Positions 3,734-41,887 of a stretch of 64,000 bases of DNA are shown piece by piece. Within the stretch, counting starts at the first letter, position 1. Every line of letters begins with the position of its first letter. The position numbers were made by a program, and so were the translations under genes. Origin of the DNA: Candidatus Kerfeldbacteria bacterium CG15_BIG_FIL_POST_REV_8_21_14_020_45_12 (lineage in GTDB: Bacteria > Patescibacteriota > Patescibacteriia > UBA9570 > XYC2-FULL-38-9). A model generated the notes under the pieces. The model was not told the origin of the DNA, did no database searches, and was given only the letters and a program-made list of their open reading frames with translations. The stretch is taken from positions 13,589-77,588 of the forward strand of contig PFGC01000037.1 of the NCBI GenBank assembly GCA_002781785.1, given 5' to 3'.

Positions 3734-4081
3734 ATGAGTATTGCACAAAAAAAACGAATGTCTCGAGGTCGACGCGCTCATCGAACGCGATCGCGATTCC
3801 ATGGTACAGCAGAGCGACCTCGCCTGTCTGTATTCCGATCTAACTTGCATATTTCTGCACAAGTTATTGATGATGTGTCCGGTGTAACCGTGGCGCAAGC
3901 TGATGACCGTGATTTAACTGGAACCAAGCGAGAAATTGCTCTAGCTGTTGGAAAGAGAATAGCTGAGGTGGCTAAAGCCAAGGGGATTGAAAGCATCGTC
4001 TTTGATCGCGGTGGTTATTTATATCATGGACGAGTCAAGGCATTAGCCGATGGAGCTCGTGAAGGCGGTTTGAAATTTTAA
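3734..4081 (+). CDS. rplR: 50S ribosomal protein L18
   Basis: 115 aa; [16 protein letters not shown]...FDRGGY.YHGRV. Confidence 0.9.
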
Positions 4082-4089
4082 GCACGATT

Positions 4090-4755
4090 ATGGCAGATAA
4101 CACGGAAGAAAAAAAAGTGACAACACCAGCGGAGAGCAAGAAGACTGTTGCCGCACCAGCAGCCAAGGCTGTTCAGGCTACCCCACGAAGTGGTGGAGGT
4201 AATAATAGAGGTGGTGGTCGCAATAATAGCAGCAACGATGGTGGAGATCGCGGAAATCGCAAACGCGGTGGACGCCGTAGACGAACTGATAAGCCGCAGG
4301 AGGAATTCGAATCCAAGATAGTTGATTTGGCTCGTGTTACTCGTGTGATGGCTGGAGGTAAACGAATGAGCTTTAGGGCTTGCGTCATCATCGGAGACAA
4401 AAAAGGACGTGTAGCCATGGGCGTAAAAAAAGGAGCTGATGTTCAATTAGCAGTTCAGAAGGCAACTGATTATGCAAAGAAGCACTTGATTCATGTTCCG
4501 ATTGTTGCTGGCACTATCCCCCATACTATCGAAAGTAAATTTAAGGGAGCTAAGGTACTAATCAAACCAGCCAAGGCTGGTACTGGAATTATTGCCGGTG
4601 GTCCAATGCGTGTAGCTCTTGAAATGGCTGGAGTGCATAATGCAGTTGCTAAAATGAAGGGTTCAAATAATAAGATCAACAATCTCACCGCAGTATTGAA
4701 TGCCCTTGATGAATTGCGAACCGCAGAAGAGATTTCCAAGTTAACAAAGAACTAG
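4090..4755 (+). CDS. rpsE: 30S ribosomal protein S5, with a G/R-rich N-terminal extension
   Basis: 221 aa; the S5 core (VTRVMAGGKRMSFRA...GTGIIAGG) follows an N-terminal low-complexity GGRNN/RRR tail. Confidence 0.9.
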   Translation: MADNTEEKKVTTPAESKKTVAAPAAKAVQATPRSGGGNNRGGGRNNSSNDGGDRGNRKRGGRRRRTDKPQEEFESKIVDLARVTRVMAGGKRMSFRACVIIGDKKGRVAMGVKKGADVQLAVQKATDYAKKHLIHVPIVAGTIPHTIESKFKGAKVLIKPAKAGTGIIAGGPMRVALEMAGVHNAVAKMKGSNNKINNLTAVLNALDELRTAEEISKLTKN

Positions 4756-26605: not shown

Positions 26606-26680
26606 GCCCGCATCGTCTAACGGCTAGGACGCCAGGTTCTCATCCTGGTAATCGGAGTTCGATTCTCCGTGCGGGTACCA
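26606..26680 (+). tRNA. tRNA-Glu (anticodon CTC), CCA encoded
   Basis: GCCCGCA acceptor, ATCGTCTAACGGCTAGGAC D-arm typical of tRNA-Glu, anticodon loop TTCTCAT, T-loop TTCGATT, then ACCA. Confidence 0.9.
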
Positions 26681-26685
26681 GAGCA

Positions 26686-26717
26686 GCATCACACTAGGTA
26701 AGTGTGATGTTTTTGTT
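26686..26717 (+). terminator. Rho-independent terminator after tRNA-Glu
   Basis: CATCACACT-aggtaa-GTGTGATG then TTTTTGTTT. Confidence 0.8.
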
Positions 26718-26800
26718 TAAAGATTGCTGTTTTTGTGGATTATTTGATCTTTTTTTTAGGTTTATTTATACTTCGGCCACCTCACTCTGTTTGTGGGGTA

Positions 26801-27490
26801 ATGCCGTTGAGGTGTTGTGTGACCTTACTTGATCTTATTCAAAAGTCGTACCCTGGCCTCTCGTTCGAAGATGCTCAGCTTCTGACGATCAGTGATCGAT
26901 GTGAAGCGGTGGCGAGGGGGCGCCGTGTTCCGGTGGTGGCCGATCACCTGGCCTACGTTCGCTCTGGCTTCGTCATGGAGTGCTACGGCGAACCCTGCGG
27001 ATCTGGTCAGTGGTCTCTCTTCCTGGGCACTCAGCTGTTCATGAATCCTGGGGCCTACTTCGGAACGTCTGATCCTGACATCGAGGCGTTGACCAGGACC
27101 AGGGTGCAGTACATCCCGCTCGAGGCGGTGAGGGCTGTGTGTCGACGGTCATCGTACCTGACCACGGTTTTGCAGGGCGGGATCATCGCTCAACGAGACC
27201 GTTTGGCCAGCTCGCTGGCCATGACCGGTCAGTCTGTGGAGGCACGCTTCACTCAGGTTCTGGCTGAAATGGTGATGACGATTGGACTGAGAGATGAGGA
27301 TGGAGTCTTCGTTCCCATCAAGATCAATCGGACTCAGCTGGCTCAGATGGTGGGCTGTAGAACAGAGACGGCCATCAGGGCTTGGAGGAGCTGCGCTGAT
27401 GGTGGTCAAATCATCGAGCGTCTGGAGGGATTCGTGATTCCTCATGACTCTTGCTTCATGGACCTGCTTGAGAAGAGAAGCGTCGCATAG
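26801..27490 (+). CDS. Crp/Fnr-family transcriptional regulator, encoded in a GC-rich island
   Basis: 229 aa; C-terminal helix-turn-helix INRTQLAQMVGCRTETAIRAWRSCADGGQI matches the HTH_Crp pattern, preceded by a cNMP-like beta-roll region. Codon usage is GC3-rich, unlike its neighbours. Confidence 0.65.
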   Translation: MPLRCCVTLLDLIQKSYPGLSFEDAQLLTISDRCEAVARGRRVPVVADHLAYVRSGFVMECYGEPCGSGQWSLFLGTQLFMNPGAYFGTSDPDIEALTRTRVQYIPLEAVRAVCRRSSYLTTVLQGGIIAQRDRLASSLAMTGQSVEARFTQVLAEMVMTIGLRDEDGVFVPIKINRTQLAQMVGCRTETAIRAWRSCADGGQIIERLEGFVIPHDSCFMDLLEKRSVA

Positions 27491-32674: not shown

Positions 32675-32698
32675 TTAGTTTTTTTGCACGTACAGACA

Positions 32699-32727
32699 TT
32701 GACGAAATTGTCTTTTTTTGCTACAAT
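32699..32727 (+). promoter_or_regulatory. Strong sigma70-like promoter TTGACG-17-TACAAT
   Basis: Near-consensus hexamers with an exact 17-nt spacer in the AT-rich intergenic DNA after the ferredoxin gene. Confidence 0.55.
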
Positions 32728-32769
32728 AGATACAGAACGTAAATAAAAAGAAAAACAAACAAAAAAGGT

Positions 32770-32880
32770 ATGCAGATCGATCATAGGACCGAGCGCTTGA
32801 TGTTTCGCATCTCTGTGCTCTTTGTCGGGGTGTCTAGCTTGCTAACACTGGCTATGATATCGCCGATGGTAATAGGGTAA
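32770..32880 (+). CDS. Orphan small hydrophobic peptide (36 aa; internal ATG gives 26 aa), possibly a type I toxin-like peptide or sRNA
   Basis: MQIDHRTERLMFRISVLFVGVSSLLTLAMISPMVIG lies between a consensus promoter and a terminator. It was not in the supplied ORF track because it is under 60 aa. Confidence 0.25.
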   Translation: MQIDHRTERLMFRISVLFVGVSSLLTLAMISPMVIG

Positions 32881-32902
32881 GTTATATAAAATAGTCTTAC
32901 CA

Positions 32903-32925
32903 CCCCGCAGTTTTGCGGGGTTTTT
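32903..32925 (+). terminator. Rho-independent terminator
   Basis: CCCCGC-agtttt-GCGGGG then TTTTT. Confidence 0.75.
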
Positions 32926-32968
32926 AGTAAAAAAAAGAAGCCCGGTCGATCGCAGGTGATCGAACGGA

Positions 32969-33499
32969 CTAGTGGCTCGCGAAGCTCAGGCTGGGGCGAG
33001 TAGCGCCGCCAAAGTGCTCGGCGAGCCACGAGCGCATCTTGTCGGTCGGGAAGGGGGCGATGTTGCCAGTTCCCGGATCGCGGACGAGCTGCAGCCAGCC
33101 TTCGGTGTAGGCCCAGTCCCCGGGGAGGACGGGGAAGCTGGCGCGGAAGCGGTGTCCGACAGGGTCGGGAAGCCCGAAGCGAGCGTCTCCGAGGTCGTTC
33201 TGGATGACGGCCATTGCGGAGGTGTTGTCGCCGTACTGGCGCAGGACGGCCACGCAGAGCAGGCAGTCCCAGCAGCGGCCGGGGCCAAGCAGGTCGGGCA
33301 GTCGCCGCCATTCCAGCCGATCGGTGCTCAGGGGTACCGCTGTGTTGGGATGCTCCCATCGGACGATGCCCTGGTGGATGGCGACTGTAATCGGCCACAG
33401 GGTGCCGATGATCGAGTGCGCCCTGAGATCGCGGAGGGCATGGGGTGAGGAGGGGGGCCCTTCGGCGGTGGGCACCCAGGTTGCAGGACGATGCTTCAT
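32969..33499 (-). CDS. Hypothetical protein (177 aa) in a GC-rich island, with a CxxCxxC motif
   Basis: ATG at 33499 with a GGAG ribosome-binding site. The amino-acid composition is balanced (MKHRPATWVP...GRCWDCLLC...WLAEHFGG), whereas overlapping frames are Arg/Pro/Ala low-complexity. GC3-rich codons. Confidence 0.45.
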   Translation of the reverse strand: MKHRPATWVPTAEGPPSSPHALRDLRAHSIIGTLWPITVAIHQGIVRWEHPNTAVPLSTDRLEWRRLPDLLGPGRCWDCLLCVAVLRQYGDNTSAMAVIQNDLGDARFGLPDPVGHRFRASFPVLPGDWAYTEGWLQLVRDPGTGNIAPFPTDKMRSWLAEHFGGATRPSLSFASH

Positions 33500-33614
33500 C
33501 GAGACTCCACGGGTTTGTCGGCTTACTGTCTGCCGAGCTGAGGAAACGAACACCTCAATGGGTGTTGCCTGTATGTATCAAGAATACCCTGGCTCGTCAA
33601 TGATTCGGCCCCTC

Positions 33615-33642
33615 TTGACACTGCAAAATAGGTGAGTATACT
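33615..33642 (+). promoter_or_regulatory. hrcA promoter TTGACA-16-TATACT
   Basis: Consensus -35 box immediately upstream of the CIRCE element. Confidence 0.6.
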
Positions 33643-33646
33643 GCTA

Positions 33647-33673
33647 TTAGCACTCAGCCAATGAGAGTGCTAA
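33647..33673 (+). promoter_or_regulatory. CIRCE operator (HrcA binding site) TTAGCACTC-N9-GAGTGCTAA
   Basis: Perfect match to the canonical CIRCE inverted repeat, 25 nt upstream of hrcA. Confidence 0.9.
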
Positions 33674-33697
33674 ATCAGGCACTAAATCCCTGGAAAT

Positions 33698-34423
33698 ATG
33701 GGAAAAAAAGAACGACAAGAGAACTTACTCCGGGTCATTGTGCAGGAGTATATTGCCACCGCAAAGCCAGTTAGCTCCAAGCAGCTGGTGGAGAGTGGTG
33801 AGTTTGATTGTTCCCCAGCTACTTTGAGGAATGACATGGCTGAGTTAGAGGGCGAGGGCTTTATCGCTCAACCGCATACTTCGGCCGGACGCGTTCCAAC
33901 TGAAAAGGGCTATCAGTACTATATTAAGCACTTTATCGTGCCACAGCAATTAAAGGGTGCGCGAAAAGAGGCGATTGATCAGGCCGTGCAACGTCAGCCG
34001 GATGAGCGACAACTGCTCAAGGTGTTGGCCAAAACGCTAGCTGATCTGACCGACGAGACGGTCGTAATATCAATGTCCGGGCAAAACTATTACTACACTG
34101 GCATTGCGCATATGTTCCGAAAGCCGGAATTTGCTGCCCAAGCCGATTTGCTACAGGAGATTGGTGAAATGTTCGACCAAATCGACGAGGTTATGAAACA
34201 AGTTAACCATTCGGTTAGCCGCACCATGCAGGTCTTGGTTGGTCGGGAAAATCCTTTTTCGCACAACTGTTCAATGATTGTCTCCGAGCATCGCTTGGCA
34301 GACGAACAGGCAGGGGTGTTAGGGATTGTTGGACCGATGCGCATGGACTATGACGCCAACATTGCAATGTTGTCTTATGTCGAATCATTAATGGATGACT
34401 TATACGATGAGTACCGACGATAA
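33698..34423 (+). CDS. hrcA: Heat-inducible transcription repressor HrcA
   Basis: N-terminal winged helix (RVIVQEYIATAKPVSSKQL); CIRCE upstream; grpE-dnaK-dnaJ downstream. Confidence 0.9.
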   Translation: MGKKERQENLLRVIVQEYIATAKPVSSKQLVESGEFDCSPATLRNDMAELEGEGFIAQPHTSAGRVPTEKGYQYYIKHFIVPQQLKGARKEAIDQAVQRQPDERQLLKVLAKTLADLTDETVVISMSGQNYYYTGIAHMFRKPEFAAQADLLQEIGEMFDQIDEVMKQVNHSVSRTMQVLVGRENPFSHNCSMIVSEHRLADEQAGVLGIVGPMRMDYDANIAMLSYVESLMDDLYDEYRR

Positions 34424-36973: not shown

Positions 36974-37630
36974 ATGAAGAAAGCTCATCTGCTCACCATT
37001 TCACTAATCACAGCTACTGCTTTAATGTATGCAGTTGGAACACAGGCAGTTAGTGATTCGCCAGCTGGATTTGTTGATACGCCACTTGATACCAAGCCAG
37101 TTAAGGCAATTGATAAGGATTCAGGAAAGGGTGTTGTCGTTCTAAAAAATAAACTGACCGGCAAAGAGCTGGAACGATTTACAGCTTTTAGTGGCGGCGG
37201 TGTTGATGCGCGCTTGGCTAACGTTGGTACGAGTGGTGAGCAGAAGGGTGTTTTGGCCATGCAAGAGCAAAAAGGCAAGTTTATGAAGTTGTACACGCGT
37301 GATGGAGAGTTATTAGCCACCCGCAAGGTGTCCAATAAAAAAGTGCATCATGAATACACCGCCGGTAAGTTAGTGGCAGACGATGATGAAAATTACATCG
37401 TAGCCGCGCGCAAAACTGGAAGTGATGATCAGGTTCTGTTGCTAGTTTATAGCTATAATGAAGACAACCGGACACTTGATCGAGTAACTTCCAAAACTGT
37501 AACTGGACTTGATAGCACAGTGATTGATGACGGCTTCGGTCTGATTATTGGTAAAAGGAAGTTGAAGTTAAATGATGAAAAGGGTAATAATCTAGCGACT
37601 CTGGAACTTGATGGTAGGACGTTACAATAA
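36974..37630 (+). CDS. Secreted hypothetical protein inserted between dnaK and dnaJ
   Basis: 218 aa with an N-terminal signal peptide (MKKAHLLTISLITATALMYAVGTQA); no family recognised. Confidence 0.45.
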   Translation: MKKAHLLTISLITATALMYAVGTQAVSDSPAGFVDTPLDTKPVKAIDKDSGKGVVVLKNKLTGKELERFTAFSGGGVDARLANVGTSGEQKGVLAMQEQKGKFMKLYTRDGELLATRKVSNKKVHHEYTAGKLVADDDENYIVAARKTGSDDQVLLLVYSYNEDNRTLDRVTSKTVTGLDSTVIDDGFGLIIGKRKLKLNDEKGNNLATLELDGRTLQ

Positions 37631-38889: not shown

Positions 38890-39172
38890 AGGTGGAGCTG
38901 GGTGGGAGGTCGGCCGAAGCTTACCCCCACCCAGCTAGCACTGTTGGTATGATCACTGTGGACTCCCCAGTCCAACGCAGGGCTTCCGAGGCCCTACTCG
39001 CCGGTCCCGCAGGCGTTATCGTTCCTTGCGTGGGGTCTCCAGTCCCACCGATAAAGCCAAGCCAGCTCAGTAATCACGGCTCTGGCCGATGCCCATGCGG
39101 CTCATCGACCAAAGGTCCCTCGTCAACGAGTGACAGCCCTCCAGCTGGTTCGTTAACGTCACCTCTAGCGCC
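38890..39172 (-). ncRNA. Candidate novel structured RNA (~280 nt, GC-rich) with its own promoter; family unassigned
   Basis: On the minus strand, a TTGACT-17-TAGAGT promoter sits at 39179-39207 on plus-strand coordinates. Downstream is a GC-rich region packed with hairpins, ending in a perfect 11-bp stem (AGCTGGGTGGG...CCCACCCAGCT) followed by CAGCTCCACC and a U-rich tract. Every frame gives low-complexity Pro/Ser/Gly or Arg translation. Confidence 0.3.
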
Positions 39173-39213
39173 GTCGGCACTCTATCTGAAGGGCCTTATT
39201 TAGTCAAATATAA

Positions 39214-39270
39214 AAAAAGAGGCGGGTCGATCAGCAGCTCTCCGAAATATTCCAGAGACCGATCGATCCG
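39214..39270 (-). terminator. Terminator hairpin for paralog A (minus strand)
   Basis: Long imperfect hairpin CGGATCGATC...GATCGACCCG followed on the minus strand by CCTCTTTTTTT; it overlaps the stop codon. Confidence 0.5.
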
Positions 39271-40068
39271 CTATTTGTTGCCAGGCGCGGCTGGGCTAGT
39301 GACCAGCACCAGTAGGCCATCACGGTTGGCGCGACAGCCGCCACTGGCCATTGCCTCCCTGACGATGGCTTCCAGCTGATCCGCCACTTGAGGTGATGGA
39401 TCCTCATCCTCATCGTTGATGAAGTAGATTCCACAGATGTAGCTCTCCTGGTCGCCATCATCGACCCCGAGCATGACCCGAGTGCCGATGGGCAGATCCT
39501 CGATGCTGCTCAGACGATCCTGGATGGTTTCGAGCAGTTCAGCCACGGCAATGCCTAGCTCGGCGGTTTCGAGCAGGGGCATGTCCACCTTGCTGTCACC
39601 GGAGAGTTGGATCTTCATGCGGGAGCGTTCAGACCAGTCCTTGATCTGGGCATCGCAGACGATGGTTGCTGCGATCAGGTCGCTCAGGCTTGCGTTGCCG
39701 ATCGGTACAGTCCTAGCGAACGGAAGATCGAGGTACACGTGGAAGCTGTGCTGTCGCCGGTGCTTGAGCCCCAGGGCCTCTACCATCTCGGCGAGATTGA
39801 AGAGCATTTCGACGGCTCGGGGCAGGCAGGCAGGTCCCAGTTCGCCGACCGGCAGCAGGATCAGCATGGTGTCTTCACCATCGAGCGCCACCGGGTTGTT
39901 CGAGTCCATCAGGTCGATGCCTTCCTCGATGAGATCGGCACAGACCTCTTCCAGGGTGTTGGGGAAGGGTTGACCCAGAAGTGAGGTCAGGTGACCTGCC
40001 GAGTCAGTAGCTGTGAACAGGATCGTCACCGATCCGCTTGCTCCAGTGAAGATGTCAGTCGGTGTCAT
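39271..40068 (-). CDS. Unknown-function protein, paralog A of a tandem triad (GC-rich island)
   Basis: 265 aa from the ATG at 40068, which has a ctGGAGGacagATG ribosome-binding site. It shares blocks with B and C (VTILFTATDS.. / ..MLILLPVGELGPA). GC3-rich codons; promoter TTGACT-17-TAAGGT at 40105-40133 on the minus strand. Confidence 0.5.
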   Translation of the reverse strand: MTPTDIFTGASGSVTILFTATDSAGHLTSLLGQPFPNTLEEVCADLIEEGIDLMDSNNPVALDGEDTMLILLPVGELGPACLPRAVEMLFNLAEMVEALGLKHRRQHSFHVYLDLPFARTVPIGNASLSDLIAATIVCDAQIKDWSERSRMKIQLSGDSKVDMPLLETAELGIAVAELLETIQDRLSSIEDLPIGTRVMLGVDDGDQESYICGIYFINDEDEDPSPQVADQLEAIVREAMASGGCRANRDGLLVLVTSPAAPGNK

Positions 40069-40201
40069 CTGTCCTCCAGTAGCACTCACCTTGAGCGCGA
40101 TCTTACCTTAATAGCAAGGGTCGATCTAGTCAATAAAAAAAGAGACCCTACACGCACCTGGAGAGGTGGGTAGGGGTGAGAGAGACTTGCTGCGCCTCTG
40201 C

Positions 40202-40918
40202 TCAGGAGCTGGGGTTGTCCGTGCGGCGCCGGGAACCTCCCGCGCCGAAGCGGCGGAGGAGCTCCAGCAGCGACTCGCTGCCGTCGGTCTGGTCGCGGAA
40301 GATGTCTTCGACGTCGAAGCCGGGGCTGAAGCCGACGAACCGCACTCGGACCAGCGTCGGACCACGCGAGGTGGGATGGCCGCTGTTGAAGACGCCGTCG
40401 ATGGCATCTTTGGCTGCGGCGAGCTCCTTGAGCTCACGGCAGACCCAGGTGGGGTCCGTGAACACCCCGACGCTCGAGGAGACGCGACCGGTGGTGAGCA
40501 GATTGGTGATCCGTCCGAAGCTCAGCCCTCCGAGCAGGGCGAGGGCCCAGCTGACCTCGTCGTTGGAGACCTGCCAGAGATCGGACGGATCGATGGCGAT
40601 GGCCACGTCGGCGAGGTTCTGGTTGGTGACGTTGGCGACGATCTGTCGTCCCGCCATCGTCAGGCGGTTTGCCAGGCCTTCGTCGATCGCCCCCACCGGT
40701 ACGAACATGACCTTGCGGCCAGTCTGGGTGGTGTAGATCGTCGAGGCGGCCAGAGCATCACCGCGGATGCGGCGATGATCGGCGTTGAAGATGGCTTCAG
40801 CCTCGACGTCCTGGTGGAAGCCGAAGAGGGGGACGCGACCGAGGCCGCAGTAGCAGGTGCTGACCAGGATGACGGTCACGGCGGGGAGCTTTCCAGAGAA
40901 CAGGGGACGGGGCTGCAT
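40202..40918 (-). CDS. Unknown-function protein, paralog B of the tandem triad
   Basis: 238 aa; ATG with a GGAGG ribosome-binding site. Blocks AVTVILVSTCY and KVMFVPVGAIDEGLA align with A. Own promoter TTGACA-18-TATTGT (40999-41028, minus strand) and a downstream hairpin plus T-run. Confidence 0.5.
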   Translation of the reverse strand: MQPRPLFSGKLPAVTVILVSTCYCGLGRVPLFGFHQDVEAEAIFNADHRRIRGDALAASTIYTTQTGRKVMFVPVGAIDEGLANRLTMAGRQIVANVTNQNLADVAIAIDPSDLWQVSNDEVSWALALLGGLSFGRITNLLTTGRVSSSVGVFTDPTWVCRELKELAAAKDAIDGVFNSGHPTSRGPTLVRVRFVGFSPGFDVEDIFRDQTDGSESLLELLRRFGAGGSRRRTDNPSS

Positions 40919-41105
40919 GTTGCCTCCAGGCTACAGCTGTGATGTTTGCTCGAAACCGAAACTTTTGAATTTGGGGATTTTACCCCTCGAGCCGCCTGAC
41001 AATACCGGATTAATTTGGTCTTTGTCAAGGGTTTTTAAAAAAAGATCGCGCGGCAGACTCGGAGTCTAGCGCACGCGAAGGTGGCGGGTGTGACCTGATC
41101 CTTCT

Positions 41106-41789
41106 CTAATCGCGGTAGAAGGGGGCCACGTCGATGGCCCAGCCACTGTTCCGCTCGATGGCGGCAAGCAGACGGTCGCCGAGGCGGCCGGCAGCCTTGC
41201 GTGGGTGTCGGATCGTCTGGCTGGTCTTGCGCCAGGTCTCCGCCAGTCGCTCTGACCGCTGCGCCCATGTCAGCCAGCTGCTGTGGATCCAGGCCATATC
41301 CCTGGCCGTCTGGTCGTCCACGACCTCCGGGCAGGTCACGAGCACCTGCGGGGCGAAGGGGGTGTTGCGCCAGCGAGCCATGGTAGCGACGGTCTCCATG
41401 CAGCCCATGATCAGCTGCATCAGGCAGGTGCCTCGCAGCTGGCCGGGGTCGAGTACCAGGCAGGTATGCGTGACCGAGAGGTGCTTCTGAATCAGCAGAG
41501 CTCCCAGGTACTGGCCGATGTGGCGGTAGTACAGGCTGCTCAGGTCACGCCAGTCCTGTCCGAGCCCGACCATGATCAGGGTGGCCGTACCCGAGACGGT
41601 GATCAGGGACATCACGTTGAGCTGGCCGGTGATGTCTGGGAAGCGGACGGCCGCGTCCATGATCGAGTTGAAGTAGCCTTCCGGCAGCTTGTCCGGGCTC
41701 GAGATGAGCACGGGCTGGTTGTTGTCATCGCGGCCCGTGAAGACGACGACGAAGCGGGTTGGTGCCAGGGTGAAAGGAACGGGGAGCAT
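41106..41789 (-). CDS. Unknown-function protein, paralog C of the tandem triad
   Basis: 228 aa from the ATG at 41789 (GGAGGcagtacATG). Blocks TRFVVVFTGRDD and VMSLITVSGTA resemble A and B. Own promoter TTGACC-17-TACACT (41843-41871, minus strand), divergent from the 41939 gene. Confidence 0.5.
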   Translation of the reverse strand: MLPVPFTLAPTRFVVVFTGRDDNNQPVLISSPDKLPEGYFNSIMDAAVRFPDITGQLNVMSLITVSGTATLIMVGLGQDWRDLSSLYYRHIGQYLGALLIQKHLSVTHTCLVLDPGQLRGTCLMQLIMGCMETVATMARWRNTPFAPQVLVTCPEVVDDQTARDMAWIHSSWLTWAQRSERLAETWRKTSQTIRHPRKAAGRLGDRLLAAIERNSGWAIDVAPFYRD

Positions 41790-41887
41790 GTACTGCCTCC
41801 AGTACGTCAGGGTGGTGCCGGCAGAAACTACCAAGCCGCCGCAGTGTATCCAAATATTTATTATAGGTCAACGCTTATTGTTAAATA

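What the first reader, a model, noticed from the sequence alone, without database searches (positions are those of the whole stretch)
32935..33645. GC-rich 177-aa unknown protein wedged between the ferredoxin gene and the hrcA CIRCE/promoter
A ~600-bp patch of ~65% GC encodes on the minus strand a protein with balanced composition and a CxxCxxC motif (GRCWDCLLC), starting at an ATG with a GGAG ribosome-binding site. Overlapping plus-strand and alternative minus-strand frames give long ORFs of Ala/Gly- or Arg/Pro/Ser-rich low complexity, a typical by-product of high GC content. The patch abuts the perfectly conserved native CIRCE operator. It therefore looks like an insertion into the heat-shock regulon leader region, composed like the other islands.
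Basis: partly seen in the sequence, partly recalled or inferred. Interest (0 to 1): 0.55.

Follow-up and report, generated by a model that had tools for sequence, protein, structure and literature searches.

The report
GC-rich orphan gene cassette beside hrcA
A self-contained, GC-rich gene with no known relatives sits just upstream of the heat-shock repressor gene of an uncultured Candidatus Kerfeldbacteria bacterium; it leaves the heat-shock controls intact, and its function is unknown.

Summary
Window 32969-33499 (minus strand) is a 176-aa ORF, not 177. Its GC is 0.68 against a host mean of 0.435 (z = 9).

It is the only frame with the GC3>GC1>GC2 pattern of a high-GC gene (0.67/0.54/0.83, permutation p<5e-5). 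It has a GGAG ribosome-binding site and a hairpin plus T8 terminator directly after its stop codon. The plus-strand 158-aa ORF that GenBank annotates is its antisense shadow.

High GC stops at the ORF ends. The leader and terminator have host-like composition.

Neither strand's product has a homologue other than itself, and no family library matched. AlphaFold gave no usable model.

The host is a Candidatus Kerfeldbacteria bacterium from the Candidate Phyla Radiation (CPR). The locus is 100% identical in 20 contigs.

About 684 bp (32929-33612) fill a variable slot between the terminator of a conserved 36-aa micro-ORF and the hrcA -35 box. The slot is empty in two relatives and holds an unrelated insert in the closest one. 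The hrcA promoter and its CIRCE operator are untouched.

The cassette matches the GC-rich cassettes after dnaJ in architecture and codon signature. One of those is conserved at 30% identity in a relative and is still GC-rich, which simple recent transfer does not explain.

Verdict: a real, moron-like orphan cassette of unknown function and moderate interest.

The parts
32929..33612 (.). Inserted segment (about 684 bp, boundaries good to about 5 bp). It fills the slot between the micro-ORF terminator ('tttttagt') and the hrcA -35 box ('tcTTGACA').
   Evidence: Junctions compared with the empty sites in L002 and L029, and with L028. The flanking spacers show no similarity to relatives' spacers beyond shuffled controls. 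No terminal inverted repeats or target-site duplication.
32969..33499 (-). Coding sequence of the 176-aa orphan protein: ATG 33499-33497, TAG 32971-32969, 19.5 kDa, pI about 7.8, 8 Trp, 18 Pro, 3 Cys.
   Evidence: ORF list. GC1/2/3 0.67/0.54/0.83 with periodicity p<5e-5. C3 0.57 / G3 0.25. Host-referenced codon adaptation index (CAI) 0.44, z = -10.9. No homologue but itself. No Pfam, NCBIfam, PHROGs, PADLOC or significant PDB match (best PDB E = 0.05, over a 60-residue stretch).
33254..33274 (-). Cys motif C76-W-D-C79-L-L-C82. These are the only three cysteines in the protein.
   Evidence: Read from the sequence. No Fe-S family match.
33505..33508 (-). Shine-Dalgarno GGAG, 5 nt upstream of the ATG.
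   Evidence: Sequence. The other GC-rich cassettes carry TGGAGG(CA) at the same distance.
33572..33600 (-). Putative promoter TTGACG (33600-33595), 17-nt spacer, TACATA (33577-33572). The -10 box is weak.
   Evidence: Read. It falls below the threshold of the consensus scan. The other cassettes have TTGAC[ACGT]-17/18-TACACT/TATTGT/TAAGGT at the equivalent place. Inferred, not shown.
33500..33571 (-). 5' leader of about 65-70 nt, GC 0.47-0.55, with no significant structure.
   Evidence: GC bins. Fold z = -0.35. No Rfam match.
32929..32971 (-). Intrinsic terminator. The hairpin 32939-32970 overlaps the TAG stop codon and is followed by UUC + U8 (32929-32936).
   Evidence: Fold -17.4 kcal/mol, z = -4.55. 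Inverted repeat I4. It is the same hairpin type as the terminator of the 272-aa island gene (22-mer with 2 mismatches at 39211-39232).
32972..33448 (+). Antisense shadow ORF (158 aa). GenBank annotates it as hypothetical protein COW24_03040 (PIW36908.1).
   Evidence: GC1/2/3 0.84/0.53/0.68. Ala/Gly/Val-rich. No Shine-Dalgarno sequence, and it starts inside the terminator hairpin. Annotation source.
33615..33673 (+). Right flank (context, native): hrcA promoter TTGACA-16-TATACT (33615-33642) and CIRCE (33647-33673), both intact.
   Evidence: Nearly identical in L028.
32699..32925 (+). Left flank (context, native): promoter TTGACG-17-TACAAT (32699-32727), A-rich leader, 36-aa micro-ORF (32770-32880) and terminator (32902-32925).
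   Evidence: Conserved in L028, L029 and L002.

Best explanation
The patch is a genuine, self-contained, single-gene transcription unit on the minus strand. It consists of a weak sigma-70-type promoter, a leader of about 65 nt, a GGAG ribosome-binding site, a 176-aa coding sequence and a hairpin plus T8 terminator.

Its coding part has a composition foreign to the host. It occupies a variable intergenic slot of a Candidatus Kerfeldbacteria chromosome, between the terminator of a conserved 36-aa micro-ORF and the -35 box of the hrcA-grpE-dnaK-dnaJ operon.

It is transcribed away from hrcA. Its terminator stands back-to-back with the micro-ORF terminator, so it neither reads into its neighbours nor disturbs the hrcA promoter and CIRCE. 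It is therefore not part of the HrcA regulon.

By architecture and codon signature it belongs with the GC-rich cassettes after dnaJ, which are oriented against their neighbouring genes. It behaves like a phage 'moron': an add-on gene with its own expression signals and deviant GC.

The product is a soluble, Trp- and Pro-rich, lineage-specific accessory protein. Its biochemical function cannot be assigned. I infer only that it is a dispensable accessory factor, because it sits in a variable islet.

Shown: the frame, the boundaries, the terminator, the orphan status, absence from relatives, and intact hrcA signals.
Inferred: the promoter, expression, and a foreign or recombinational origin.
For: - Composition and frame: GC 0.68, z = 9.1. 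Only this frame shows GC3>GC1>GC2, with periodicity p<5e-5. Its amino-acid make-up is balanced, whereas the other frames are skewed.
- Signals: Shine-Dalgarno sequence and ATG. Terminator at -17.4 kcal/mol, z = -4.55, directly after the stop codon.
- Extent: high GC is confined to the coding sequence.
- Not an artefact: 20 contigs from JGI, ENA, Logan and NCBI assemblies are 100% identical over 32680-33700.
- Relatives: the site is empty in L029 and L002, and a different insert sits in L028.
- Shared signature with island genes of the window and of L028: C3 0.50-0.61, G3 0.25-0.36, TA-poor, GA-rich.
- Shared layout: promoter, TGGAGG, coding sequence, hairpin plus T7-8. Its terminator is related to that of the 272-aa island gene.
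Against: - No homologue in about 15 billion proteins for either strand's ORF, so no donor is identified and conservation cannot be tested.
- There is no sequence variation among the 20 contigs, so selection cannot be tested.
- The -10 box (TACATA) lacks the conserved final T, and the consensus scan found no promoter.
- AlphaFold2 on the single sequence gave pLDDT 35.
- Codon usage is extremely un-host-like: CAI 0.44, z = -10.9.
- No integrase, transposase, terminal repeats, target-site duplication or tRNA gene is associated with it.
- Host-like promoter, Shine-Dalgarno sequence and T-rich terminator around a GC-rich coding sequence are odd for a raw import from a high-GC donor.
- The orthologous 242/269-aa island gene keeps GC3 about 0.87 across a saturated divergence, which argues against simple 'recent transfer not yet adapted to host GC' for this class of genes.
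Confidence: 0.6

Rival explanations
1. Dead cargo. A fragment of foreign high-GC coding DNA was captured in a tolerant intergenic slot. The ORF is intact only because the capture is recent. It is not expressed to any purpose and will decay.
For: No homologue. Weak promoter. Very poor codon adaptation. No foldable model. No polymorphism with which to show purifying selection.
Against: The GC-rich stretch begins and ends exactly at an ATG preceded by a Shine-Dalgarno sequence and at a stop codon embedded in a strong terminator. A random fragment would not bring this. The same complete layout recurs in five other GC-rich cassettes. An ORF of at least 176 codons arises in only 1.1% of shuffles.
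Confidence: 0.17
2. A native, lineage-intrinsic class of rapidly evolving genes, oriented against their neighbouring genes. High GC3 would be actively maintained in the coding part only, for example by GC-biased gene conversion at recombination hot spots or by repeated allele replacement through conserved flanking promoter and terminator modules. Under this view the patch is a solo member that relatives have lost or replaced, not a one-off import.
For: - w242 (41106-41834, minus) and the L028 269-aa gene share position, orientation and the divergent promoter TTGACC-17-TACACTGCSGCSGCTTG. They share only 30% amino-acid identity.
- Both have GC3 0.87-0.88, while dS of housekeeping genes is saturated and host GC3 is 0.36-0.67.
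- High GC stops at the coding-sequence ends, and the regulatory parts are host-like.
- No donor is present in 15 billion proteins, a collection that includes JGI, ENA and Logan assemblies from samples carrying this organism.
- Species-specific orphan genes normally match host GC (PMC11293555), so a special process is needed either way.
Against: - It rests on a single orthologous pair.
- p176 itself has no counterpart in any relative and no similarity to the 242/269 profile.
- Independent site-specific acquisition from a related high-GC pool would give the same picture.
- No mechanism known to me raises GC3 by 40 points gene by gene.
Confidence: 0.15
3. The plus-strand 158-aa ORF (32972-33448), as annotated in GenBank (PIW36908.1) and called by most gene finders, is the real gene.
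For: It is co-oriented with all neighbouring genes. Gene callers chose it in 9 of the 11 contig places that span the ORF; the minus-strand ORF was called only on the short Logan contig SRR5436000_271928 and, per the protein-search record, on one JGI contig.
Against: - GC1 0.84 > GC3 0.68 is the mirror image of a GC3-rich sense strand.
- Its composition is Ala16/Gly15/Val12%.
- It has a GTG start inside the terminator hairpin and no Shine-Dalgarno sequence.
- It does not span the whole GC-rich zone.
- It has no homologue either.
Confidence: 0.04
4. It is not a gene at all but a structured non-coding RNA, or an assembly chimera.
For: GC-rich islands in AT-richer genomes are sometimes RNA genes.
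Against: - Strong 3-base periodicity.
- No Rfam match even at E<=10.
- Identical junctions in independent JGI, ENA, Logan and NCBI assemblies, on contigs up to 74 kb among those fetched (the protein index records one of 746 kb).
Confidence: 0.02

Closest known systems
Phage 'morons' (add-on transcription units first described in phages HK97 and HK022)
   Same: An obvious addition between genes that are adjacent in relatives. Its GC differs from the surroundings. It has its own terminator and a putative promoter, and it carries a single accessory ORF (definition quoted from PMC3594210).
   Different: It is not in a phage or prophage. The flanks are nifS, fdx and hrcA-dnaK. It has no PHROGs match and no match in phage records. 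The promoter is not demonstrated.
Species-specific orphan genes (ORFans) and small genomic islets
   Same: A short, lineage-restricted gene with no homologues, poor codon adaptation, absent from relatives.
   Different: In a large survey of human-gut species, orphan genes match their genome's GC (0.45 vs 0.46, rho 0.96), and virus-like orphans are lower in GC (PMC11293555). This one is 24 points higher, and only within its coding sequence.
Integron gene cassettes and cassette arrays
   Same: Small single-ORF units, arrayed head to tail (island after dnaJ), differing between relatives at the same site.
   Different: No attC-like recombination site or terminal repeats. No integrase seen in the region surveyed (ORFs 26.7-42.6 kb, Pfam). 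Each unit carries its own promoter and terminator, whereas integron cassettes are typically promoterless (my own knowledge).
Compositionally deviant horizontally transferred islands, such as host-derived genes reported in episymbiotic CPR bacteria like Saccharibacteria (recalled from memory, not checked here)
   Same: A high-GC segment in a lower-GC genome of an episymbiont lineage.
   Different: No donor homologue was found. High GC is restricted to coding sequences, with host-type signals around them. One island gene has stayed GC-rich at an orthologous locus despite saturated divergence.

Membership tests
Phage moron | Extra DNA between two genes that are adjacent in related genomes | tested here: met
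   The site is empty in L029 and L002.
Phage moron | [quoted passage not shown] | tested here: met
   0.68 vs 0.435, z = 9.1.
Phage moron | Own terminator | tested here: met
   Hairpin at -17.4 kcal/mol, z = -4.55, followed by U8.
Phage moron | Own promoter | tested here: inconclusive
   TTGACG-17-TACATA was read by eye. It is below the scan threshold. No expression data are available.
Phage moron | Resides in a phage or prophage genome | tested here: not met
   The flanks are housekeeping genes. No PHROGs or phage match.
HrcA/CIRCE heat-shock regulon member | CIRCE operator within the gene's own promoter or leader | tested here: not met
   CIRCE (33647-33673) lies downstream of the plus-strand hrcA promoter and outside the minus-strand unit, which starts at or before 33600.
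Ferredoxin-type / Fe-S Cys-cluster protein | CxxCxxCxxxCP-type motif and a match to an Fe-S family model | tested here: not met
   Only three Cys (C76, C79, C82) and no fourth Cys-Pro. No Pfam or NCBIfam hit at E<=1. Metal binding itself is not testable here.
Insertion sequence / MITE / transposon | Terminal inverted repeats and a target-site duplication, or a transposase | tested here: not met
   No terminal inverted or direct repeats at 32929/33612. The ORF has no transposase family match.
Integron cassette | attC site at the cassette end and an integrase nearby | tested here: not met
   The only palindrome at the 3' end is the terminator hairpin. No integrase family match among the ORFs tested in 26.7-42.6 kb.
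Horizontally acquired genomic island | Deviant composition and absence from relatives | tested here: met
Horizontally acquired genomic island | An identifiable donor lineage or homologues elsewhere | tested here: not met
   Only self-hits in 5.8 billion clusters and 1.84 billion representatives, for both strands. No significant match in plasmid or phage records (best plasmid hit E = 0.5).
GC-rich cassette set of this lineage, oriented against the neighbouring genes (defined here) | TTGAC-type promoter, TGGAG(G) ribosome-binding site, coding sequence with C3 at least 0.5 and A3/T3 at most 0.1, hairpin plus T7-8 terminator, minus strand | tested here: met
   The promoter is the weakest element. 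The terminator is related to that of w272.

The most novel reading that the evidence does not exclude
Kerfeldbacteria may carry a previously undescribed class of hypervariable single-gene cassettes, oriented against their neighbouring genes. Their coding sequences, and only those, would be held at about 85% GC3 (C-ending codons) inside a genome of about 44% GC. The cassettes would sit between conserved host-type promoter and terminator modules and turn over at fixed intergenic slots. The 176-aa gene would be a solo member. The cause would be a gene-targeted process, either recurrent allele replacement from a high-GC pool (possibly the unknown host organism of this episymbiont) or extreme GC-biased conversion, rather than ordinary one-off transfer.
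Probability: 0.2. Interest if true: 0.7.

Novelty: new variant of a known kind. Interest (0 to 1): 0.4.

Why it matters
On its own, this is one more orphan gene of unknown function. It also corrects a public annotation, because GenBank and most gene callers chose the antisense shadow ORF.

It matters more as an entry point. Within 15 kb the genome holds four cassettes of this kind, and a relative holds two. All have host-type expression signals around coding sequences of foreign composition.

One of them has stayed GC-rich at an orthologous locus across a divergence that saturated synonymous sites. That is not what the standard model predicts, in which transferred genes drift towards host GC (Lawrence & Ochman 1997, as cited in PMC11293555).

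It is also the opposite of what orphan genes usually look like, since they normally match host GC.

If the GC-rich pool could be traced, it might point to the partner organism of an uncultured CPR episymbiont.

There is also a methodological warning. Default gene calling and BLAST composition filters hide these genes and their homologies (vs 71).

Tried and rejected
**Family libraries and homology searches**
- Pfam, NCBIfam, PHROGs and PADLOC on the 176-aa product and on alternative frames: nothing.
- PDB sequence search: best E = 0.05, to a putative chelatase over 60 residues. Judged to be chance.
- Word-indexed search of 5.8 billion proteins with the minus-strand ORF and with the plus-strand shadow: only self-hits.
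- Exhaustive phmmer over 1.84 billion representatives: itself plus P0002. P0002 is a tandem-repeat peptide matching one 20-30-residue stretch (AYxxGWLxLVR). Rejected as spurious.
- tblastn against phages and plasmids: nothing significant.
- Viral contigs: nothing retrievable.

**Structure**
- AlphaFold2 on the single sequence: pLDDT 35 and unusable, so no fold search was run.

**Relatives**
- The scans of species-representative genomes and of metagenome contigs with HrcA gave only one close relative (L002) and some Fusobacterium-like hits.
- Useful relatives came from the HrcA protein search followed by contig look-ups.

**Tests on the patch**
- Terminal repeats or a target-site duplication: none.
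- RNA-gene hypothesis: no Rfam match at gathering threshold or at E<=10.
- Homology of p176 to the island proteins or to the 242/269 profile: none.
- My by-eye impression that the island proteins are paralogues of one another: not supported by hhalign.
- Host-referenced CAI does not discriminate between frames. All frames score poorly, and the true frame scores worst.

**Side leads**
- The idea that 38890-39195 (minus) is a tmRNA, because its 3' end CAGCUCCACC recalled one to me: not supported by ARAGORN or Rfam.
- Literature search for GC-rich islands in CPR or Kerfeldbacteria: nothing relevant.
Full report
**1. What is in the sequence**

The window averages about 0.44 GC. Host 531-bp windows have mean 0.435, sd 0.027 and maximum 0.514. 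Between about 32961 and 33480 the GC rises to 0.62-0.78 in every 40-bp bin, and it falls back to 0.40-0.55 on both sides.

The rise coincides with a minus-strand ORF. Its stop codon TAG is at 32971-32969 and its ATG at 33499-33497, with GGAG at 33508-33505. The product is 176 aa, as in the database entry P0001, not 177. The ORF has GC 0.68, z = 9.1.

The Cys motif is C76-W-D-C79-L-L-C82 (33254-33274). These are the only cysteines.

**2. Which frame is real**

Only the 176-aa frame shows the codon-position pattern of a high-GC gene: GC1/2/3 = 0.67/0.54/0.83.

The plus-strand 158-aa ORF shows the mirror pattern, 0.84/0.53/0.68. The 3-base periodicity was reached by none of 20,000 permutations.

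The 176-aa frame has a balanced amino-acid composition (Leu, Pro, Ala, Arg and Gly at 9-11% each). The other frames are Ala/Gly/Val-rich or Arg/Pro/Ser-rich.

A complete ATG ORF of this length arises in 1.1% of shuffles of the insert.

On the minus strand the stop codon is embedded in a hairpin of -17.4 kcal/mol (z = -4.55), followed by UUC-U8. That is a canonical intrinsic terminator.

Upstream there is a leader of about 65 nt with no significant structure. There is also a candidate promoter, TTGACG-17-TACATA (33600-33572). Its -10 box is weak, and the consensus scan did not report it.

Host-referenced CAI is poor for all frames and worst for the true one: 0.44 against a host value of 0.73 ± 0.03. 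So it measures foreignness and does not identify the frame.

**3. It is not an artefact, and whose genome it is**

The HrcA and ferredoxin proteins of the window are found on 16 and 21 contigs from JGI, ENA, Logan and NCBI assemblies. All 20 fetched loci that overlap 32680-33700 are 100% identical there.

NCBI names the organism Candidatus Kerfeldbacteria bacterium CG15_BIG_FIL_POST_REV.... I take the CG prefix to denote the Crystal Geyser groundwater metagenomes.

In 9 of the 11 fetched contig places that span the ORF, the gene caller annotated the plus-strand shadow ORF. This includes GenBank PIW36908.1, 'hypothetical protein COW24_03040'. The minus-strand ORF is on record for one short Logan contig and, per the protein search, one JGI contig.

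**4. Orphan status**

- The 176-aa product matches only itself among 5.8 billion clustered proteins.
- It matches only itself in an exhaustive phmmer scan of 1.84 billion representatives. The one extra hit is a tandem-repeat peptide matching a single short stretch, which I regard as spurious.
- Because gene callers favour the wrong strand, I also searched with the shadow ORF. It too matches only itself.
- Pfam, NCBIfam, PHROGs, PADLOC, the PDB, and phage and plasmid records gave nothing significant.
- AlphaFold2 without an alignment gave pLDDT 35, so no fold comparison is meaningful.

**5. Synteny**

Relatives were reached through HrcA.

| Locus | HrcA identity | Gene order at the site |
|---|---|---|
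| L029 | 66% | nifS - fdx - 36-aa micro-ORF - hrcA, with an AT-rich spacer of about 130 bp |
| L002 | 59% | nifS - micro-ORF - terminator - about 5 bp - hrcA -35 box |
| L028 | 76%, the closest | Same slot holds an unrelated 39-aa + 530-aa plus-strand pair at that genome's own GC |

The micro-ORF module is conserved in all four genomes. It comprises a promoter with a TG-extended -10 box, an A-rich leader, the 36-aa peptide M.ID.KTERLMFRI..LF......LL....ISPM.IG, and a terminator. The hrcA promoter and CIRCE are nearly identical between the window and L028.

The variable segment in the window is therefore about 32929-33612. It is bounded by the micro-ORF terminator and the hrcA -35 box.

It has no terminal repeats or target-site duplication. 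Its flanking spacers resemble those of relatives no more than shuffled controls do. The heat-shock promoter and operator are intact, and the new gene points away from them.

**6. Relation to the 'other islands'**

The region after dnaJ (38.9-41.8 kb) carries three more minus-strand ORFs: w272, w238 and w242. L028 has a GC-rich island (0.65-0.73) at the same place, with two minus-strand ORFs.

All six GC-rich ORFs share these features:
- A third-codon-position make-up of C 0.42-0.61, G 0.25-0.36, and A and T at most 0.16 each (at most 0.10 in five of the six). Host genes have GC3 of 0.36-0.54.
- A TA-poor, GA-rich, AA-poor dinucleotide signature, closer to one another than to the host.
- The same layout: TTGAC[ACGT]-17/18-TA-type promoter, a leader, a TGGAG(G)-type ribosome-binding site (clear for four of the six), a GC-rich coding sequence, a hairpin plus T7-8 terminator, and then often the next TTGAC.

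The terminators of p176 and w272 are versions of one hairpin: TAG-CGGWTCGATC...GATCGACCSGSCTYCTTTTTTT.

At the protein level p176 is unrelated to any of them.

**7. What does not fit simple recent transfer**

w242 and the L028 269-aa ORF are homologous: 30% identity over 232 residues, E = 1e-26. tblastn found this only with composition filters switched off.

They occupy the same position and orientation, next to the conserved 229/247-aa membrane-protein gene. They also share the divergent promoter TTGACC-17-TACACTGCSGCSGCTTG.

Between these two genomes HrcA is 76% identical and DnaK 89%, and synonymous sites are saturated (dS undefined or above 2). Yet GC3 of this gene is 0.87 in one genome and 0.88 in the other.

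A gene inherited from the common ancestor should have drifted towards host GC3. So either alleles are repeatedly re-imported at conserved flanks, or something maintains GC in the coding part.

In all cassettes, high GC stops at the coding-sequence ends. No donor appears in a collection of about 15 billion proteins that includes assemblies from samples carrying this organism. In a large survey, orphan genes match host GC (0.45 vs 0.46, rho 0.96; PMC11293555).

I cannot resolve this with the data at hand. It is recorded as the novel reading.

**8. Explanation and rivals**

Most likely (0.6): a real, autonomous, moron-like orphan cassette occupying a variable slot, transcribed away from hrcA, insulated by back-to-back terminators, and outside the HrcA regulon. 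It encodes a soluble 19.5-kDa accessory protein of unknown biochemistry.

Rivals:
- Unexpressed dead cargo (0.17).
- A native hypervariable gene class with maintained GC. This concerns origin and is partly compatible with the main explanation (0.15).
- The plus-strand ORF is the real gene (0.04).
- An RNA gene or an assembly artefact (0.02).

**9. Comparison with known kinds**

It works like a phage moron. The definition is own promoter and terminator, and GC content different from the surrounding genes (PMC3594210). It fails the membership feature of residing in a phage.

It is not an insertion sequence or MITE, not an integron cassette, not a CIRCE-regulated gene, and not a recognisable Fe-S protein. 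Each of these was tested and not met.

It is an orphan gene, but an atypically GC-rich one.

**10. Verdict**

As a single orphan gene of unknown function, the finding is of moderate interest (0.4). The surrounding pattern of GC-rich cassettes with host-type signals, and the persistence of their GC, is the part worth following up.

Noticed in passing
window 32699-32925 (+): A conserved 36-aa micro-ORF (32770-32880, MQIDHRTERLMFRISVLFVGVSSLLTLAMISPMVIG) with its own promoter (TTGACG-17-TACAAT, preceded by TG), an A-rich leader and a terminator. It sits directly upstream of hrcA in four Kerfeldbacteria genomes (window, L028, L029, L002). It has no Pfam match and looks like a single-pass membrane peptide.
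   Followed up: partly
window 38890-41834 (-), and L028 13270-15053 (-): After dnaJ there is an array of three GC-rich single-gene cassettes oriented against their neighbouring genes: w272 (39271-40089), w238 (40202-40918) and w242 (41106-41834). None has a family match. L028 has two at the same site. w242 and the L028 269-aa ORF are orthologous (30% identity, E = 1e-26, shared promoter) and both keep GC3 about 0.87, although dS of housekeeping genes is saturated. L002 and L031 have no island there.
   Followed up: partly
window 38890-39195 (-): A GC-rich stretch of about 300 nt between dnaJ and the island. It has no 3-base periodicity and has stop codons in all minus-strand frames. It is preceded by TTGACT-17-TAGAGT and ends in a long hairpin followed by CCACCUCUCUUUUCU. 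The minus strand folds at -145 kcal/mol (z = -4.6). No Rfam or ARAGORN match. It is a candidate unclassified non-coding RNA.
   Followed up: partly
window 32972-33448 (+) and 40166-40942 (+): Public annotations (GenBank PIW36908.1 / PJA93006.1, and most JGI and ENA gene calls) pick the antisense shadow ORFs of the GC-rich genes. The true products are therefore largely missing from protein databases, which biases homology searches for this class of genes.
   Followed up: yes
L028 6018-7733 (+): In the closest relative, the slot between the micro-ORF and hrcA holds a 39-aa ORF and a 530-aa ORF on the plus strand at that genome's own GC. The 530-aa ORF has only a weak DUF218 hit (E = 4e-5, below the family's curated score cut-off). 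The slot is therefore a hot spot for different insertions.
   Followed up: partly
window 26606-27490 (+): tRNA-Glu(CTC) is followed by a 251-aa ORF at GC 0.55, with a weak Crp-type helix-turn-helix match (E = 6e-5, below the family's curated score cut-off). It lies in another slot, between GAPDH and G6PD, that holds different ORFs in L028 (515 aa) and L029 (132 aa).
   Followed up: no
L002 (CAYFNF010000001.1): This genome assembled from a metagenome is titled 'uncultured Gammaproteobacteria bacterium'. However, it shares the micro-ORF-hrcA-grpE-dnaK-dnaJ synteny and 59% HrcA identity with Kerfeldbacteria, so the label is probably wrong. It also has one GC3-rich ORF (4008-4409 +, GC3 0.77) upstream of nifS, and it lacks the fdx gene.
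   Followed up: no
window 36974-37630 (+): A 218-aa ORF with no Pfam match sits between dnaK and dnaJ. It is conserved in L028 (62% identity) and L029 but absent from L002 and L031, where dnaJ follows dnaK directly.
   Followed up: no
local BLAST, vs 71: Default tblastn (SEG filtering plus composition-based statistics) missed the 94-bit match between w242 and L028 entirely. It appeared only with the filters off. Negative BLAST results for these GC-rich proteins, including, should be read with that in mind.
   Followed up: yes
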